Part shown: piece after piece, positions 696-21,010 of the stretch
Position numbering within the stretch: position 1 is the first letter of the stretch
How the letters are laid out: every line of letters starts with the position of its first letter
NCBI GenBank assembly: GCA_023898465.1
Contig: CP060223.1
Location: forward strand, 544,001 to 608,000
DNA: 64,000 nucleotides
Origin: Candidatus Nomurabacteria bacterium
GTDB taxonomy: Bacteria > Patescibacteriota > Patescibacteriia > HK-STAS-PATE-3
Direction of reading: 5' to 3'
The notes under the pieces: model-generated
The model's database searches: none
Told to the model about the DNA's origin: nothing
What the model saw: only the letters and a program-made list of their open reading frames with translations
Position numbers and translations under genes: made by a program

Positions 696-2465
696 TTATG
701 TAAATTTGATAACCTGCCCAGGTTGAAGAGACTTACCTGATTGCGTCTGTGGCTGACTATGTTTCTCTTGTGCCTGAACAGACTTTGACTGCTCAGCTTG
801 CTTCGGAGTATTTTTGGCTGGCTGACTCTTTTCCTGAGGTTGCTTCTTCTTAGGCTTCGCTGTGAATTGCACAGGACCTTTACTCAGCGCCTCGTGTAAG
901 CTAATTTCTTTTGGTGGCTCAGGAGCTACTTCACGCAACTGCTCAGGCTCAGGTGCCGTTTGTGTAAAATTCGGTCGATCGTTTCTTCCCTGCTCTCGCT
1001 CATTGCGTGGACGGGAGCTGTTTTGATTACCTTGAGGATTTGGTTGACGATTTCGGTCATTCCCGCCTGATCGTTGTCGAGATCCGCCGCCTTGATTTTG
1101 ACGCGGTCCACTTCCCCCTCGACGATCATTTCCACCCCTATTACCGCCGCTACGATTTCCGCCACCCTGGGAACCCTGTCCGAGGAAGATTTCATCAACT
1201 CCAGTCCATCGGCGGATTTTATCTTCTACAATCTCTCGCTTCTTAGCATAGCGCTCACGTGACACCTCAATCACTTTTTGCCCATTACCGGTTGGACCGC
1301 TCACTGGCTCCAGAGTTGTAGCGGAAAAAGGCTCAGAAGCTACTCCATCAATCATTAAGCGGAGATAAATATCGTACTTGGTCAGGTTTACTAAATCAGT
1401 CTCAGTGAAGGTGGGATCAAACTCTTTAGCCAAAAACTCTGCATCAGCGGCACCAACACGGAAACACACGATCGATCCGACGTTGCCAAAAACAGCCGCG
1501 CGAACTTGCTCATCTAACTGCTCAATATACTGGTGAGCCATGATAAGATTTAAGCGATACTTACGCGCCTCTGACAAAATGTTGGCAAAGCTCTCAGTGG
1601 CAAAGTTTTGAAATTCGTCAACATAGAGGAAAAAATCTTTACGATCTTTTTCCGCAATGTCTACGCGACTCATGGCCGCCAACTGAATCTTGGTAATCAT
1701 CATACCACCCAGCAAAGCTGCATTATCTTCACCAATACGGCCTTTGGAAAGGTTCAGTAAGACAATCTTTTGCTCGTCCATCAATTGCCGCAAATCAAAA
1801 GTACTCTTCGGCTGGCCAATGATATTACGAATCATTGATGAGGAAAGAAATTGACCAATCTTGTTTTGGATAGGTGAAACAGCTTCGGTACGGAATTGGT
1901 TAGCGTATTGGCCGAATTCCTCATGCCAGAAAGCCTTCACAATAGGATCAGTTAGCTTCTCCACCACTTTTGATCGATAGTCGTTGTCGACGAGAATACG
2001 AGGAATACCCAAAAGTGTTGACCCAGGATACTCAATCAAGGAGAGAATACTATTGCGCAAAATGTATTCCAATCGAGGTCCCCATGAGTCGCTCCACATT
2101 TTTTTAAACACCGAAACAAGACCCGAGGCTACTAAGTGGCGGTGGGCAGGGTTTACACTTTCTAAGACGTTGAAGGCTACCGGATAATCTACATCAGCCG
2201 GATTAATATACACCACATCATTAATTCGATGTGAAGGAATGTAATCTAAAATCTTTTCCACAAAGTCACCGTGCGGATCAATCACAGCTAAGCCATGACC
2301 AGCTCGCACATCCTGGATCATCATATTTTCAAGCACCGTCGTCTTACCCATACCGGTCTTACCGATAAAGTACATGTGACGGCGTCGATCATCTATTCTA
2401 ATACCAAAGCGCCGCTGCTGATTGCGGAAATTCGTTTTAGCAAAAAAATTAATATCTTCACTCAT
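696..2465 (-). CDS. VirD4/TraG/TraD-like type IV coupling-protein ATPase (FtsK/HerA superfamily). It has no N-terminal TM segment and carries a long disordered RGG/KQ-rich C-terminal tail.
   Basis: Walker A is YFIGKTGMGKTT and Walker B/DEFQ is LYVDEFQNF. The block ...RKYRLNLIMAHQYIEQLDE...GNVGSIVCFRVG matches the T4CP C-terminal (TraM-recognition) region. The tail (about 190 aa) is GGNRGG/RQ-rich then KQ-rich. Confidence 0.7.
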   Translation of the reverse strand: MSEDINFFAKTNFRNQQRRFGIRIDDRRRHMYFIGKTGMGKTTVLENMMIQDVRAGHGLAVIDPHGDFVEKILDYIPSHRINDVVYINPADVDYPVAFNVLESVNPAHRHLVASGLVSVFKKMWSDSWGPRLEYILRNSILSLIEYPGSTLLGIPRILVDNDYRSKVVEKLTDPIVKAFWHEEFGQYANQFRTEAVSPIQNKIGQFLSSSMIRNIIGQPKSTFDLRQLMDEQKIVLLNLSKGRIGEDNAALLGGMMITKIQLAAMSRVDIAEKDRKDFFLYVDEFQNFATESFANILSEARKYRLNLIMAHQYIEQLDEQVRAAVFGNVGSIVCFRVGAADAEFLAKEFDPTFTETDLVNLTKYDIYLRLMIDGVASEPFSATTLEPVSGPTGNGQKVIEVSRERYAKKREIVEDKIRRWTGVDEIFLGQGSQGGGNRSGGNRGGNDRRGGSGPRQNQGGGSRQRSGGNDRNRQPNPQGNQNSSRPRNEREQGRNDRPNFTQTAPEPEQLREVAPEPPKEISLHEALSKGPVQFTAKPKKKQPQEKSQPAKNTPKQAEQSKSVQAQEKHSQPQTQSGKSLQPGQVIKFT

Positions 2466-9533: not shown

Positions 9534-9986
9534 ATGAAGAAAAAAATTAAGAGCATTTTCTCTAAAGTACTATTTGGCGAGGAGGCTTCGGCCCACTGTG
9601 ATGGACCTTGTGGAGTATACGATGGTGCCTCCGCGGAAATTGCCGCGCGAGCAGCAGTGAGCATGACTAAGAAGCTCCTTGAGCTCACAACGCCCACTCC
9701 GCAATCAAGTCCAGAAGATAAACTCAACTACCACCACACCGTTGCCCGCTATACACTGATCAAAGAGGAGCAAAGTGAAATTGCCAAGCGCGAACTTCTC
9801 ATACTCTGGACTGATTTTTTCAAACCAGAGCATCTCGATGCTTTTCCTGATTTGCATGAGTTCATTTGGAAGCTTGCCAAACAGTGTTCATATGTGAAGC
9901 AGCACGTTGATCTCGAAGCAGCTGAAAAAATGCACGCTGATATCATGAAGCTGGCTGAGATGCATCATCAGGCCTCTCACCACTAA
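9534..9986 (+). CDS. sodN: Nickel superoxide dismutase precursor (NiSOD).
   Basis: Ni-hook motif HCDGPCGVYDGA follows a 20-aa propeptide. The four-helix-bundle length is right. The SodX-like peptidase is immediately downstream. Confidence 0.85.
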   Translation: MKKKIKSIFSKVLFGEEASAHCDGPCGVYDGASAEIAARAAVSMTKKLLELTTPTPQSSPEDKLNYHHTVARYTLIKEEQSEIAKRELLILWTDFFKPEHLDAFPDLHEFIWKLAKQCSYVKQHVDLEAAEKMHADIMKLAEMHHQASHH

Positions 9987-9987
9987 A

Positions 9988-10287
9988 ATGCATTTTAATC
10001 TACCTCGACATATTGTTGTGCGAGGTGAAAGTATGCTGCCTGCGCTAAAGCCCGGGCAGCATTGCTTTGTGCTCCCCTACTACTTTAGCTCTCCAAAAAT
10101 AAATGATGTGGTGCTGGCTCGCGATCCACGAAATAATGCCTTGATCATAAAACGCATCGCTGAAGTACAAAAAATGGGTGAACACAATTTGTATACACTG
10201 CATGGTGACAACGCTGCGAAAAGTACTGACAGTCGCCAGCTTGGTCAATGGGATAGGAAGAATATCCTAGGTAGAATTTTTGTCTAA
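9988..10287 (+). CDS. sodX: S26-family signal-peptidase-like NiSOD maturation protease (SodX-like).
   Basis: GESMLP..L serine box (compare SGSMEPTL) and an S26 lysine region. There is a 1-nt gap after sodN. Confidence 0.7.
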   Translation: MHFNLPRHIVVRGESMLPALKPGQHCFVLPYYFSSPKINDVVLARDPRNNALIIKRIAEVQKMGEHNLYTLHGDNAAKSTDSRQLGQWDRKNILGRIFV

Positions 10288-18865: not shown

Positions 18866-19996
18866 TTAGGCGTCATCTGCCGTTTGGGTAGTGCAGGGAC
18901 AAGCAACCTTATCGAGTTGTAAGCGCTCGAGGATAGGCTCCGCTTCTTTATCTGTAGCCGGACGAGGCCTCGCATAGTCATCAATAATAACCGGTACGAA
19001 GTCTAAACCAGTGACACCCTCCTGGCTATCGATTTCGATATCAGCCAGCATCCCCTCCCTGGTTGGTTGTGACCACATTTGATCAAAAATAAAATTACCT
19101 AGACTGTAGAGAATATACTTCCCCTTATACGCTTCGATATTTTGCACCACATGAGGATGATGACCAATCACTAGCTCTGCTCCAGCGTCAATTGCTGCAT
19201 GAGCGAAATCAATCTGCTGCTGTGTTGGCGTGTAAGTATATTCAATACCAGAGTGCATCGAAACAAACACATAGTCAGCCATCTCTTGCGCTCGCTGCAC
19301 AGCGGACTGCATATTTGCTATGTCCATAAACGCAGTCCCAGGCTGCGTGTCGCTTGCGCCATAGCTGGCTGGAACTAAGGAGCTCCAGGTGTACGCAACG
19401 ATGGCGATGGTAATTCCATTACGCGTCAGCAAGGCCGGCTGCTCCGCCTGATCTAAATCTTCGCCTGCCCCGGTCGAGGCGATCCCGGCTGCGTCCAGAT
19501 AGCTTATCGTATCTAACAATCCATCATTTCCAAAGTTAGGACTGTGATTATTTGCCAAGGAAACTGCGGAAATATTTGCGTCAGCCATTAGCTCTTCAAC
19601 CCCAGGGTTAGCCCGGAAGCTTAACTCTTCTGCTTCAATATGCCGACCGGCTGTAATAGGACACTCCAGGTTTGCGAACACTGCATCGGCCTGCTGTAAA
19701 ATATCTTTCATGCCAGAGAAGGGATAGTCATTTCCCTTTTTCGCCATCTTATCTGCCACAGTACGAGAAAGCATAATATCCCCCACAGCATAGAGATGCA
19801 TGCTTTGTGACGATTCTTCAGGCACCTCACTCAAGTCTGTTGAGGGCTCATAGACAAGCTGATCTTGTAGTGAAGCGTATACCCTCGGTGCTCGCCCGGC
19901 AATCTTATTTGCCACCTGAGCAATACAAAACCAACCTGCGCCTAAGACCAGGATGATAACAACTACGGGATAAAAGTAACGGGCAGACATACCCAC
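18866..19996 (-). CDS. CapA/PgsA-family metallophosphoesterase (poly-gamma-glutamate synthesis-like).
   Basis: AVGDIMLSR...ADAVFANLECPIT...SLANNHSPNFGNDGLLDTISYLDAAGIASTGAG is the CapA signature. N-terminal TM helix. Confidence 0.8.
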   Translation of the reverse strand: MGMSARYFYPVVVIILVLGAGWFCIAQVANKIAGRAPRVYASLQDQLVYEPSTDLSEVPEESSQSMHLYAVGDIMLSRTVADKMAKKGNDYPFSGMKDILQQADAVFANLECPITAGRHIEAEELSFRANPGVEELMADANISAVSLANNHSPNFGNDGLLDTISYLDAAGIASTGAGEDLDQAEQPALLTRNGITIAIVAYTWSSLVPASYGASDTQPGTAFMDIANMQSAVQRAQEMADYVFVSMHSGIEYTYTPTQQQIDFAHAAIDAGAELVIGHHPHVVQNIEAYKGKYILYSLGNFIFDQMWSQPTREGMLADIEIDSQEGVTGLDFVPVIIDDYARPRPATDKEAEPILERLQLDKVACPCTTQTADDA

Positions 19997-20071
19997 ACGA
20001 TACCCTATTTTCCAAAAACGAGGAATAAGAAAGGCCTGCCGACACCGAAAGATGACGACAGGCCATAGTGG

Positions 20072-20494
20072 TCAACGAGGATTGACCGGCTGCTTGGGCG
20101 AAGACTTGGGCTTCGAAGAAGGCTTTTTGTCCACTCCATTGGACCGAGGCCTTCTCGACTTTCCGGTCCTTGTGGACGGCAGTCTGAAAGCTTCTTTCAC
20201 TCGCCCCGCCGCCAATTCCAGCTTGCTGGGCTTGGCAGACGAGCTATTCACCTCGGGTGCTTGCTTGGCGTCAGCGAAGTTCTGTGCGACCTCGCCATGA
20301 GCTTGAGCTGAAACACCGGATGCCCGACGATTCTCATCGCGCACCCGATCGTAGATCTCTTCCCGGTGGACAGCGACATTCTTCGGCGCATCAACGCCAA
20401 TCTTGACCTGTCCACCCTTCACATCCAGGATGATGATCTTGACCCGATCACCTACCCGGATATTCTCCCCCAACTTCCTTGTCAAAATGAGCAT
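20072..20494 (-). CDS. csrA: CsrA-like carbon storage regulator with a basic K/S/P-rich C-terminal extension of about 75 aa. GC-rich patch.
   Basis: [48 protein letters not shown] is near-canonical CsrA. The ORF's 25 upstream residues are an extension artefact. The tail is PKQPVNPR-rich. Confidence 0.7.
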
Positions 20495-20665
20495 GACTCT
20501 TGTACTCCATTGCTTGGCTGTGTGGCCATCCTTGGTTTCTCGGGCGCCAAAAACGCCCTCCTGTTGCAAACGGAGATACTACGCGAGTCTCTCTATTTTG
20601 TCAACCATGCACCGAACCTGGTACGGAGTGAGTCCCACACCAAACTTGGTGTGGGGTCAACCACT

Positions 20666-21010
20666 CTAGAGACGGTCTATCTTAACGGCCAGAATAAAAT
20701 CGTTTTCATGCAAACCGCGAATGGCATGAGTAAACAAGGTGAAATCGACTTTATTATAGTGAACGCAAAAGTCAGGGTGATGTCCTTCGGACTCGGCTAG
20801 CCCTTCAACCTTACGTAGGAATGCCATAGCAGCTCGGAAGTCGTCAAAAGTGAAACGCTTTTGCAGTGTCTTCATTTCCACACCATTCTTCTCTATTACT
20901 TTCACTTCCCAGTTAGAAAGCTGCGGGAGAAGCTGAGCTATCTCTTCATCAGTTGCCGGCGGTATACCGCCCTCGCATGGAACGCATTTCTTCGCTAGGA
21001 GCTCACTCAT
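20666..21010 (-). CDS. Pterin-4a-carbinolamine dehydratase (PCD/DCoH).
   Basis: E-x-E-GHHPD-x(5)-Y-x(9)-H-x(3)-GL signature: SEGHHPDFCVHYNKVDFTLFTHAIRGL. Confidence 0.85.
   Translation of the reverse strand: MSELLAKKCVPCEGGIPPATDEEIAQLLPQLSNWEVKVIEKNGVEMKTLQKRFTFDDFRAAMAFLRKVEGLAESEGHHPDFCVHYNKVDFTLFTHAIRGLHENDFILAVKIDRL

What the first reader, a model, noticed from the sequence alone, without database searches (positions are those of the whole stretch)
20072..20665. CsrA homolog with long basic tail, perfect hairpin in its leader, and no FliW or flagellar context
The N-terminal 50 aa are near-canonical CsrA. This is followed by about 75 aa of K/S/P-rich basic tail (typical CsrA is 60-75 aa in total). 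The 5' leader contains a perfect 10-bp hairpin CCCACACCAA-act-TTGGTGTGGG (20632-20654) and several GGA motifs. The gene is GC-rich relative to its neighbours. It may be a horizontally acquired RNA-binding regulator with an added domain.
Basis: partly seen in the sequence, partly recalled or inferred. Interest (0 to 1): 0.5.

Follow-up and report, generated by a model that had tools for sequence, protein, structure and literature searches.

The report
Captured CsrA with orphan basic tail
A tiny-genome (CPR/Patescibacteria) bacterium carries a genuine CsrA RNA-binding regulator, captured from flagellated bacteria and inserted as a self-contained gene without its usual partner FliW; its long basic tail is a one-off, apparently disordered extension, not a conserved added domain.

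Summary
The gene is real: window 20072-20494 (-) encodes a 140-aa CsrA. It passes the Pfam and NCBIfam CsrA cut-offs, and the RNA-binding residues are intact. GenBank already annotates it as CsrA of a Candidatus Nomurabacteria MAG.

Its relatives (72-84% identity over aa 1-~80) are 84-117-aa CsrAs, mostly from Ca. Eisenbacteria. In 25 of 26 genome loci these lie in fliW-csrA-fliC flagellar clusters. The window has no FliW or flagellar gene.

Related CPR contigs show an ancestral order of pterin dehydratase (PCD), cupredoxin, CapA. The slot after PCD is empty in some, holds an unrelated gene in one, a different csrA allele in two, and this csrA here. Horizontal acquisition is therefore well supported, and csrA was probably captured at least twice.

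The family-conserved part runs to about aa 78 (two helices). Residues 79-140 have no homolog in 5.8 billion or 1.84 billion protein sets, are predicted coil, and are absent from the syntenic orthologs.

The 10-nt inverted repeat is real (20634-20655). It lies upstream of the csrA promoter (TTGACA-17-TAGTAT), 10 nt after the PCD stop, so it is not in the leader. The three GGA motifs in the leader are not unusual.

The finding is ordinary in mechanism and modestly interesting in evolution.

The parts
20072..20494 (-). csrA coding sequence, 140 codons plus a TGA stop. Identical to GenBank USN53079.1, 'MAG: carbon storage regulator CsrA [Candidatus Nomurabacteria bacterium]'.
   Evidence: Translation. 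Pfam PF02599 at 80.2 bits. NCBIfam NF002469 and TIGR00202 above their cut-offs. Exact database match. Three other assemblies are 100% identical across both junctions.
20339..20494 (-). CsrA core, aa 1-52: beta strands and the start of helix 1. It holds the RNA-binding residues L2, L4, R6, K7, V40, V42, H43, R44, E45, E46 and I47.
   Evidence: Aligns to E. coli, Pseudomonas and Geobacillus CsrA structures at E 1e-15 to 1e-17. These positions are invariant or nearly so in 117 homologs and are kept here.
20261..20338 (-). C-terminal extension typical of FliW-type CsrA, aa 53-78: the end of helix 1 with N55, then a second helix at aa 63-77. It is partly degraded here (L66H, R/K67G, I72N; the basic patch at 77-81 is lost).
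   Evidence: Column statistics against 117 homologs. AF2 helices at 44-59 and 63-77. V/I51 and N55 are the FliW-contact residues according to PMC7829508.
20075..20260 (-). Lineage-specific tail, aa 79-140. It is rich in K, R, S and P (net charge about +12 over aa 81-140), predicted disordered, and has no homolog.
   Evidence: phmmer against 1.84 billion representatives gives only 2 weak chance hits to WD40 repeats. No hit covers more than 69% of the query in 5.8 billion clusters. None of the tail peptide patterns was found in 185,579 species genomes. AF2 gives coil with pLDDT 44-68. tblastx homology to the syntenic orthologs ends at about aa 86.
20576..20604 (-). Predicted sigma-70-type promoter of csrA: -35 TTGACA (20604-20599), 17-nt spacer, -10 TAGTAT (20581-20576).
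   Evidence: Promoter scan, 10 of 12 matches. The syntenic orthologs L045 and L115 also have TTGACA-16-TATACT between PCD and csrA.
20495..20569 (-). Inferred 5' leader of about 75 nt with three GGA motifs: CAGGAGG, CCAAGGAUGG and the Shine-Dalgarno AUGGAGU at 20505-20508.
   Evidence: Sequence. The fold is not significant. The GGA count is ordinary. The transcription start is inferred from the promoter, not measured.
20634..20655 (-). Perfect 10-nt inverted repeat (9-bp stem and 4-nt loop as RNA), without a U tract. It starts 10 nt after the stop of the upstream PCD gene and lies 5' of the csrA -35 box. It is most likely a 3'-end or terminator-like hairpin of the PCD transcript.
   Evidence: (dG -23.9 kcal/mol, z = -1.97). 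Absent from the corresponding intergenic regions of relatives.
20014..20064 (-). Intrinsic terminator of csrA: a GC-rich hairpin GGCCUGUCG..CGGCAGGCC (20033-20064) followed by a U-rich tract. It starts 7 nt after the stop codon.
   Evidence: Fold z-score -4.99, with 0 of 200 shuffles as stable. The orthologs L045 and L115 also have a terminator after csrA.
20666..21010 (-). Upstream flank: the pterin-4a-carbinolamine dehydratase (PCD) gene, host-like in GC. It marks the conserved left border of the variable slot.
   Evidence: Pfam PF01329 at 102.6 bits. Homologs at 63-80% identity are widespread, with Patescibacteria and Zixibacteria among those named. Synteny.
18866..19996 (-). Downstream flank: the CapA/PGA_cap family gene, the conserved right border. 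The cupredoxin gene that lies between the slot and CapA in all five related lineages is missing here.
   Evidence: Pfam PF09587 at 255 bits. Synteny and identities.

Best explanation
This is a functional-looking, monocistronic csrA gene, horizontally acquired by a flagellum-less CPR (Nomurabacteria-labelled) bacterium.

Origin:
- It comes from the CsrA clade that in Eisenbacteria-type bacteria sits between fliW and the flagellin gene.
- It was inserted with its own promoter and terminator into a variable slot just downstream of a pterin-4a-carbinolamine dehydratase gene.
- In this lineage it also displaced, or coincided with loss of, a neighbouring cupredoxin gene.

Inferred mechanism, from family knowledge:
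- The protein forms the usual CsrA homodimer.
- Through the conserved beta1/beta5 residues (L2, L4, R6, K7, V40, V42, R44, I47) it binds GGA motifs in mRNA leaders and blocks ribosome binding.
- Its own Shine-Dalgarno region (GGAG) and an upstream CCAAGGAUGG are candidate autoregulatory sites.

Relation to FliW:
- The gene is an 'orphan' FliW-type CsrA. It keeps the FliW-contact residues V51 and N55.
- No fliW or flagellin gene lies within 64 kb.
- The second C-terminal helix carries non-conservative changes, consistent with relaxed constraint.

The tail:
- Residues 79-140 are a lineage-specific, intrinsically disordered, basic extension of recent origin.
- It may add non-specific RNA affinity, but nothing shows it to be selected.

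Shown: family membership, gene anatomy, the donor-clade context, the variable slot, and the uniqueness of the tail. Inferred: RNA targets, autoregulation, absence of FliW from the rest of the genome, and any role of the tail.
For: Family membership:
- Pfam and NCBIfam scores are above their cut-offs.
- PDB CsrA matches reach E 1e-15 to 1e-17.
- The RNA-binding positions are invariant in 117 homologs and are kept here.

Purifying selection on the core:
- dN/dS is 0.06-0.16 against relatives over 75 codons. dS is near saturation.

Gene anatomy:
- Promoter, terminator at z = -5, and Shine-Dalgarno plus ATG.

Donor clade:
- 25 of 26 genome loci with close relatives have fliW adjacent to csrA, directly upstream in 24. 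Of these 25, 23 also have fliC downstream and 22 fliS.
- Full flagellar clusters are seen.
- Those loci have GC of 0.60-0.73, against 0.47 for the window genes.

Insertion:
- Empty slot in L122/L123 and L124.
- An unrelated 209-aa cargo gene in L119, whose PCD is the closest at 80%.
- A 104-aa csrA of a different sub-clade in L045 and L115.
- In 500 NJ bootstraps, window plus L045/L115 is monophyletic in only 1.8%, while L045/L115 join Eisenbacteria 'group 2' in 80%.
- csrA GC and GC3 lie 2.1 and 2.6 sd above the window genes.

No FliW or flagellar genes in the window.

FliW-contact residues V51 and N55: PMC7829508 compared.

Tail:
- No homolog and no family match.
- Predicted coil.
- 13% of composition-matched shuffles stay open for 54 codons.

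Not an assembly artefact: three other assemblies are identical across both junctions.
Against: - Only 64 kb of a roughly 1.08-Mb genome could be inspected, so a distant fliW or an RNA antagonist cannot be excluded.
- No expression, RNA-binding or dimerisation data exist for this protein.
- The AF2 monomer model is of low confidence (mean pLDDT 61).
- The window protein's exact sister group is unresolved: it joins 'group 1' in only 35% of bootstraps, and only about 80 alignable residues are available.
- The tail's GC3 (0.65) resembles that of the domain (0.61) rather than the host (0.45). This argues that the tail did not arise by read-through into host DNA, and leaves its origin unexplained.
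- Because only one sequence of the tail exists, selection on it cannot be tested in either direction.
Confidence: 0.72

Rival explanations
1. One reading: the basic tail is a functional added module. It could be a second, non-specific RNA-binding arm, a ribosome- or RNA-tethering disordered region, or a substitute for FliW control, giving this CsrA new properties.
For: - The tail is strongly basic: +12 net over 60 aa.
- It roughly doubles the protein, beyond the 61-100 aa stated for the family in PMC13443453.
- Another orphan 'group 1' CsrA in a non-flagellar context (P0015, on L118) has a short basic P/K-rich tail, EAPDVAPPKPKGRKKH, resembling the start of this one.
- Tail GC3 matches that of the domain.
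- By analogy from general knowledge, disordered C-terminal tails modulate RNA binding in Hfq.
Against: - No homolog of the tail exists in 5.8 billion clusters, 1.84 billion representatives or 185,579 species genomes.
- The syntenic orthologs end at 104 aa with neutral or acidic tails.
- Close relatives carry tails of every charge, several strongly acidic, so the region appears to drift freely.
- The tail is predicted coil.
- An open frame of this length arises in 13% of shuffles.
Confidence: 0.15
2. The long ORF is an artefact. It could be a sequencing or assembly frameshift, a chimeric contig, MAG contamination, or a decaying pseudogene whose stop codon was lost.
For: - The tail is unique and of low complexity.
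- The second helix carries non-conservative substitutions at otherwise conserved positions.
- A stop-free extension is not improbable by chance.
Against: - Three contigs from other assemblies are 100% identical and span both junctions with the host genes.
- The gene lies inside a long chromosomal stretch with ribosomal, cell-division and repair genes.
- The core is intact, with every RNA-binding residue kept and dN/dS of 0.06-0.16.
- The promoter, Shine-Dalgarno sequence and terminator are intact.
- No alternative frame of the tail matches the relatives' tails or downstream sequences.
Confidence: 0.05
3. The CsrA is not an orphan. A FliW homolog, another protein antagonist or a GGA-rich sponge RNA is encoded elsewhere in the genome, and the system works as a normal partner-switch module on a non-flagellar target such as pilin or a surface-protein mRNA.
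For: - The FliW-contact residues V51 and N55 are retained.
- The L115 ortholog keeps the whole extension, at 95-96% identity to FliW-linked Eisenbacteria CsrAs with dN 0.024-0.03. This suggests continuing constraint on that surface in at least that CPR lineage.
- Only 6% of the genome was visible.
Against: - No FliW or flagellar homolog lies in the 64 kb or on the contigs of the syntenic orthologs.
- No Rfam CsrB, RsmY or RsmZ-type RNA is found in the window.
- The densest non-coding GGA stretch is explained by a small ORF.
- CPR bacteria are generally described as lacking flagella (general knowledge, not tested here).
- In the window protein the second helix is degraded.
Confidence: 0.1
4. 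csrA is ancestral to this CPR lineage and vertically inherited. The resemblance to Eisenbacteria reflects slow evolution of CsrA, or transfer in the opposite direction.
For: - csrA occurs at the same locus in three CPR lineages.
- Another CPR genome (Kerfeldbacteria, L027) has a 65-aa CsrA next to uvrA.
- csrA transcripts are reported among highly expressed genes of ultra-small groundwater prokaryotes (PMC9938205).
Against: - The closest host relatives by PCD and CapA lack csrA at the site.
- The two CPR alleles fall in different sub-clades of the FliW-linked family. Monophyly is recovered in 1.8% of bootstraps, with five diagnostic positions.
- csrA has higher GC than its flanks both in the window and in L045.
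- The FliW-linked arrangement is regarded as ancestral (PMC13443453).
Confidence: 0.05

Closest known systems
FliW-antagonised CsrA of flagellated bacteria: B. subtilis, Campylobacter jejuni, Geobacillus thermodenitrificans (PDB 5DMB), and the fliW-csrA-fliC clusters of Ca. Eisenbacteria
   Same: - Same domain, at 72-84% identity to the Eisenbacteria proteins over aa 1-~80.
- Extended C-terminus with a second helix.
- FliW-contact residues V/I51 and N55 present.
- Aligns to 5DMB chain D over residues 2-65.
   Different: - No fliW, flagellin or any flagellar gene lies nearby.
- It is monocistronic, with its own promoter and terminator, in a CPR chromosome.
- The second helix has lost conserved hydrophobic and basic positions.
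- It carries an extra tail of 54-62 aa.
sRNA-antagonised CsrA/RsmA/RsmE of Gammaproteobacteria: E. coli 1Y00, P. fluorescens RsmE 2JPP
   Same: Same fold and RNA-binding residues. These are the best PDB sequence matches (E about 2e-17). The expected mode of action is binding GGA motifs at Shine-Dalgarno regions.
   Different: Those proteins are 61-65 aa without the C-terminal extension, and are titrated by CsrB, RsmY or RsmZ-type sRNAs. No such RNA was detected in the window.
Horizontally acquired, stand-alone CsrA/Rsm paralogs on mobile elements, such as Pseudomonas Rsm paralogs (PMC7366521) and Legionella ICE-borne CsrA paralogs (the latter from general knowledge)
   Same: A csrA-family gene moving as a small self-contained cassette into a new genome, outside any flagellar operon.
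   Different: No integrase, transposase, flanking repeats or other mobile-element genes surround it. It appears to be the only CsrA seen in the window, not a paralog added to a resident copy.
Syntenic CPR orthologs found here: L045 (JGI Ga0172379_10060652), L115 (Logan SRR22388171), and P0046
   Same: Same slot downstream of PCD. Each has its own TTGACA promoter and its own terminator, and no FliW.
   Different: - They are 104 aa, and the second helix is intact.
- They belong to a different sub-clade, 95-96% identical to Eisenbacteria 'group 2'.
- They are followed by a cupredoxin gene.
- Their tail is neutral or acidic, and alignable with the window tail only to about aa 86.
Hfq C-terminal disordered tails (an analogy only, from general knowledge)
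   Same: A small, conserved RNA-binding core carrying a highly variable, disordered C-terminal tail whose charge differs between lineages.
   Different: Hfq is an unrelated fold. For Hfq a regulatory role of the tail has been shown experimentally; here none has.

Membership tests
CsrA/RsmA family (Pfam PF02599; NCBIfam TIGR00202 and NF002469) | Profile match above the curated cut-off | tested here: met
   Pfam scores 80.2 bits against a cut-off of 27. NF002469 scores 93.9 against 73, and TIGR00202 scores 86.1 against 70.1.
CsrA/RsmA family (Pfam PF02599; NCBIfam TIGR00202 and NF002469) | RNA-binding residues of beta1 and beta5 (E. coli numbering L2, L4, R6, R7, V40, V42, R44, I47) | tested here: met
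   All are present, with R7 replaced by K as in 98% of the clade. Their functional role rests on published E. coli mutagenesis (general knowledge).
CsrA/RsmA family (Pfam PF02599; NCBIfam TIGR00202 and NF002469) | Interdigitated homodimer of five beta strands plus a C-terminal helix | tested here: inconclusive
   The AF2 monomer model shows strands at 12-14, 18-26 and 29-35 and a helix at 44-59, but with mean pLDDT 61 and pTM 0.33. No dimer was modelled.
CsrA/RsmA family (Pfam PF02599; NCBIfam TIGR00202 and NF002469) | Binds GGA-containing RNA and represses translation | not testable with these tools
   This requires EMSA or reporter assays.
FliW-CsrA partner-switch module | C-terminally extended CsrA with the FliW-contact residues V/I51 and N55 | tested here: met
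   V51, N55 and an extension to about aa 78 are present. The criteria come from PMC7829508.
FliW-CsrA partner-switch module | A fliW gene, usually adjacent to csrA | tested here: not met
   tblastn with two Eisenbacteria FliW proteins finds no hit in the 64 kb (best E 0.099). fliW is adjacent in 25 of 26 relatives' loci. The rest of the genome could not be searched.
FliW-CsrA partner-switch module | A flagellin gene or mRNA as target, and a flagellar gene context | tested here: not met
   No FliC, FliS, FliD, FlgK, FlgL, FlgH, FlgI or FlaG homolog is found in the window.
Csr/Rsm sRNA-sponge systems (CsrB/CsrC, RsmX/Y/Z) | An sRNA with many GGA motifs in hairpin loops | tested here: not met
   No Rfam family reaches its gathering score in the window. 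The GGA-density scan finds no convincing non-coding cluster. Only 64 kb was searched.

The most novel reading that the evidence does not exclude
A CPR lineage has repeatedly captured FliW-type csrA genes from Eisenbacteria-like bacteria at one genomic hot spot. It keeps them under selection as partner-less global translational regulators, possibly reflecting a physical or host association with the donors. In this genome the basic disordered tail would be a new functional appendage that replaces FliW-based control, for example by tethering the dimer to RNA or to ribosomes.
Probability: 0.1. Interest if true: 0.55.

Novelty: new member of a known kind. Interest (0 to 1): 0.3.

Why it matters
The mechanism is that of an ordinary CsrA, and the gene is already annotated as such. 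The interest is evolutionary.

- A regulator normally wired into flagellar assembly (fliW-csrA-flagellin) has been moved as a bare cassette into small-genome, presumably flagellum-less bacteria, and probably more than once at the same chromosomal slot.
- If these orphan copies are active, they offer a natural experiment on what a FliW-type CsrA does without FliW and flagellin, and on how reduced genomes recruit post-transcriptional regulators.
- The donor clade could also hint at which bacteria these CPR organisms live with.
- The tail illustrates how freely the C-termini of this clade drift: acidic, neutral or basic.

Tried and rejected
1. Tail homology. A phmmer search of aa 79-140 against 1.84 billion representatives gave two hits, both WD40-repeat proteins matching 'TRTGELK'-like repeats. 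These are chance matches.

2. Frameshift or fusion origin of the tail. None of the following gave a match:
- the other two frames of the tail;
- blastn and tblastx against the csrA-downstream regions and cupredoxin genes of L045 and L115;
- blastn and tblastx against the 35 related loci then held: 31 flagellar-context loci plus L045 and L115-L117;
- tblastn with five cupredoxins.

3. Apparent flagellin remnant. A tblastx hit (E 4e-4) of the + strand of the leader to flagellin 3' ends looked like a remnant. It aligns off-frame, stop-containing, R/S-rich translations. Direct alignment to real flagellin C-termini scores below the shuffle means. Rejected.

4. Autoregulatory structure. The leader fold is no better than shuffles and the GGA count is ordinary. 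Autoregulation stays an inference.

5. CsrB-like sponge. Rfam finds nothing at gathering score. Permissive searches of the csrA region (19900-20750) and of 51250-52700 give only chance-level matches. The GGA-dense spots are coding sequence or a small ORF.

6. Mobile-element signatures. No flanking direct or inverted repeats surround the cassette, and the hairpin sequence is unique in the window.

7. Retrieving the rest of the genome. The 1.08-Mb NCBI contig is not in the contig index, and the genome is not among the GTDB species representatives that were scanned. FliW absence could therefore be tested only in the window.

8. Selection on the tail. All four available copies are identical, so no test is possible.
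Full report
**What is in the sequence**

On the minus strand, 20494-20072 encodes a 140-aa protein. It begins [16 protein letters not shown]..., as all homologs do. A GGAG lies 10 nt upstream of the ATG.
- Pfam CsrA matches aa 1-52 at 80.2 bits, against a cut-off of 27.
- The two NCBIfam CsrA equivalogs score 93.9 and 86.1 bits, above their cut-offs.
- The best PDB sequence matches are E. coli, Yersinia and Pseudomonas CsrA/RsmA/RsmE, and the FliW-bound Geobacillus CsrA 5DMB (E 2e-17 to 4e-15).
- The exact sequence is GenBank USN53079.1, 'MAG: carbon storage regulator CsrA [Candidatus Nomurabacteria bacterium]', on a 1.08-Mb contig.
- Three short contigs from other assemblies are 100% identical and span both junctions with the neighbouring genes. 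The ORF is therefore not an assembly accident.

The window is ordinary CPR-type chromosome. It holds ribosomal protein L7/L12, LexA, a UvrD-type helicase, MacB-type ABC transporter components, VIT1, Ni-SOD, DUF4342, DUF1761, DUF378, CapA and others.

**Gene anatomy**

A near-consensus promoter, TTGACA-17-TAGTAT, lies at 20604-20576 on the minus strand. It would give a leader of about 75 nt. Seven nucleotides after the stop codon is a strong hairpin followed by a U-rich tract, 20064-20014 (z = -4.99). The gene is thus a self-contained transcription unit.

- Its arms are 20634-20643 and 20646-20655: 10 perfect nucleotides with 2 nt between them.
- As RNA this gives 9 bp and a 4-nt loop, at -23.9 kcal/mol with z = -1.97.
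- It is unique in the window.
- It starts 10 nt after the stop of the upstream pterin-4a-carbinolamine dehydratase (PCD) gene and lies upstream of the -35 box. It is therefore a 3'-end element of the PCD transcript (with no U tract), not part of the csrA leader.

The leader contains three GGA motifs, one of which is the Shine-Dalgarno sequence. Eleven of 67 genes in the window have at least three, and the leader does not fold better than shuffles. Autoregulation by CsrA on CCAAGGAUGG and the Shine-Dalgarno site is plausible from family knowledge but is not indicated by statistics.

**How much of the protein is 'CsrA'**

The closest relatives are 72-84% identical and 84-117 aa long. They share not only the 52-aa domain but also a conserved extension...[32 protein letters not shown], reaching to about aa 78. 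AF2 places helices at 44-59 and 63-77 and coil from 78 to 140.

Column statistics against 117 homologs show three things.
- Every RNA-binding position is kept: L2, L4, R6, K7, V40, V42, H43, R44, E45, E46 and I47.
- V51 and N55 are kept. These are the residues shown to contact FliW in C. jejuni, and in B. subtilis for N55 (PMC7829508).
- The second helix has non-conservative changes at positions that are hydrophobic or basic in 97-99% of relatives (L66H, R/K67G, I72N). The basic patch at 77-81 is also gone.

Over the first 75 codons, dN/dS against relatives is 0.06-0.16, with dS near saturation. The core is therefore under purifying selection, while the FliW-side helix looks relaxed.

**The tail**

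Residues 79-140 are rich in K, R, S and P, with 16 K/R against 4 D/E in aa 81-140.
- No protein in the 5.8-billion-cluster collection covers more than 69% of the query. The self-score is 289 bits and the next best is 129.
- phmmer with the tail alone against 1.84 billion representatives finds only two chance matches in WD40 repeats.
- None of the tail peptide patterns occurs in 185,579 species genomes.
- Pfam and NCBIfam find nothing.
- The syntenic orthologs described below end at 104 aa, and tblastx similarity stops at about aa 86.
- Tails in this clade are very variable: acidic D/E runs in several Eisenbacteria proteins, neutral in others, and short and basic in P0015.
- An open frame of 54 codons arises in 13% of composition-matched shuffles.

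No frameshift or fusion source for the tail was found. Its GC3 of 0.65 is like the domain's 0.61 rather than the host's 0.45, so its origin is unresolved. The supportable reading is a recent, lineage-specific, disordered extension with no demonstrated role.

**Where the gene came from**

A scan of one genome per species returned 26 loci with close relatives, mostly labelled Ca. Eisenbacteria, with GC of 0.60-0.73.
- In 25 of them fliW is adjacent to csrA, directly upstream in 24.
- 23 of those also have fliC downstream, and 22 have fliS.
- Two examples inspected in full show flgK-flgL-fliW-csrA-fliC-fliS-fliD.
- The single exception is another CPR genome (Kerfeldbacteria, L027), with a 65-aa CsrA beside uvrA.

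In the window, tblastn with these flagellar proteins finds only csrA. csrA GC and GC3 lie 2.1 and 2.6 sd above the window's genes.

**The insertion site**

Searching with the flanking genes recovered related CPR contigs.

| Contigs | Content of the slot after PCD |
|---|---|
| L122/L123, L124 | Empty: PCD, cupredoxin, CapA with only 40-66 nt after PCD |
| L119 (PCD 80% identical, the closest) | An unrelated 209-aa gene with no Pfam match, with its own promoter and terminator |
| L045, L115 | A 104-aa csrA with its own TTGACA-16-TATACT promoter and terminator, followed by cupredoxin and CapA |
| Window | The 140-aa csrA; the cupredoxin gene is absent |

The slot after PCD is therefore a variable insertion site, and csrA is acquired cargo.

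The two CPR csrA alleles are not each other's closest relatives.
- L045 and L115 carry the derived states of Eisenbacteria 'group 2' (F8, I40, T41, D68, H71). L115 is 95-96% identical to group 2 over 75 aa and L045 87-88%.
- The window protein lacks all five of those states and resembles 'group 1'.
- In 500 NJ bootstraps, window plus L045/L115 is monophyletic in 1.8%. L045/L115 plus group 2 is recovered in 80%, and window plus group 1 in 35%.

This points to at least two captures, or an in-situ allelic replacement, at the same slot. With only about 80 alignable residues this is a moderately supported inference. I have left it flagged as unexplained.

**Mechanism**

Shown:
- an intact CsrA family member in a monocistronic cassette;
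- origin in a FliW-linked clade;
- no FliW or flagellar genes within 64 kb;
- a unique tail predicted to be disordered.

Inferred from family knowledge:
- a homodimer that binds GGA motifs in 5' leaders and blocks translation initiation;
- possible autoregulation at its own Shine-Dalgarno region;
- no FliW in the rest of the genome (CPR bacteria are generally described as non-flagellated);
- relaxed constraint on the FliW-facing helix;
- a tail that at most adds non-specific electrostatic affinity for RNA.

csrA transcripts have been noted among highly expressed genes of ultra-small groundwater prokaryotes (PMC9938205). A recent survey finds CsrA in about 30% of bacterial genomes, describes monomers of 61-100 aa, and regards the FliW-CsrA system as ancestral with multiple independent losses (PMC13443453).

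**Verdict**

The CsrA domain, basic tail, GC excess and lack of flagellar context hold. The hairpin is real but misplaced, the GGA motifs are not significant, and the conserved part is longer than stated.
Horizontal acquisition holds; an added domain does not.
- It is a new member of a known family with an unusual, unconserved tail. Its interest lies mainly in the evolutionary story of orphaned FliW-type csrA cassettes in CPR genomes.

Noticed in passing
window 51810-52575 (-), with further elements down to about 51455: A GC-rich stretch of about 760 nt (roughly 0.6 by eye, against 0.47 for window genes) has no credible ORF. It lies between the divergent lexA (52639-53301, +) and a UvrD-type helicase gene (49187-51280, -). 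It starts after a promoter-like TTGACA-17-TAGTGT and ends at a strong terminator hairpin (GGCCCCGTCAC...GTGACGGGGCC followed by a T run). Downstream are a second short terminated unit and a 38-aa ORF with a strong Shine-Dalgarno sequence (MGNAAVQEDAGKPNFDEVKRGDQCPVKDCKGTMQLTGS). Rfam gives no hit at gathering score, and only chance-level matches at E <= 1. It could be an undescribed structured RNA or a decayed foreign gene.
   Followed up: partly
L119:5588-6217 (NCBI CAZWTD010000002.1); the same slot as window 20000-20665: In the closest relative by PCD identity (80%), the slot that holds csrA in the window holds an unrelated 209-aa protein. It has no Pfam match, contains an HECVH motif, and has its own promoter and terminator. 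This shows that the site downstream of PCD takes different cargo.
   Followed up: partly
L045:892-1206 and L115:508-822 compared with window 20072-20494: Related CPR lineages carry csrA at the same locus, but from a different sub-clade of the Eisenbacteria-type family. L115 is 95-96% identical to 'group 2' over 75 aa (L045 87-88%), and they are 67-73% identical to the window protein. This implies independent capture or in-situ replacement. It remains unexplained.
   Followed up: yes
Proteins P0003 (167 aa) and P0094 (140 aa): Two hits are tandem fusions of two complete CsrA domains in one polypeptide (MLILTRR...HREEIY twice, joined by a short linker). They would be single-chain versions of the normally homodimeric protein.
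   Followed up: no
Proteins P0030, P0031, P0034, P0047, P0053 and locus L023 (Eisenbacteria-type CsrAs): Several FliW-linked relatives end in long, strongly acidic D/E-rich tails (for example ...DDDDYADDDESDEDEQDDC), opposite in charge to the window's tail. The C-terminal tail of this clade appears to drift freely, or to be tuned by charge.
   Followed up: no
L027:210-404 (Ca. Kerfeldbacteria, CAIJZX010000014.1) and L118:97-393 (JGI Ga0131077_10500691): Two further orphan CsrAs lie outside any flagellar context. One is a 65-aa CsrA next to uvrA in a Kerfeldbacteria MAG. The other is a 98-aa 'group 1' CsrA with a short basic P/K tail, upstream of a gene that by eye resembles the DUF59 family, on a 52% GC contig.
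   Followed up: partly
window 9534-10287 (+): A nickel superoxide dismutase gene (Pfam Sod_Ni, 127 bits) is followed directly by a short S26-family peptidase. This is the usual SodN-SodX maturation pair, here in a CPR genome.
   Followed up: partly
window 696-2465 (-): A TrwB/TraD-type type IV secretion coupling-protein homolog has a long, low-complexity C-terminal tail rich in G, R, N and Q. It is another example in this window of a basic disordered tail on a conserved core.
   Followed up: no
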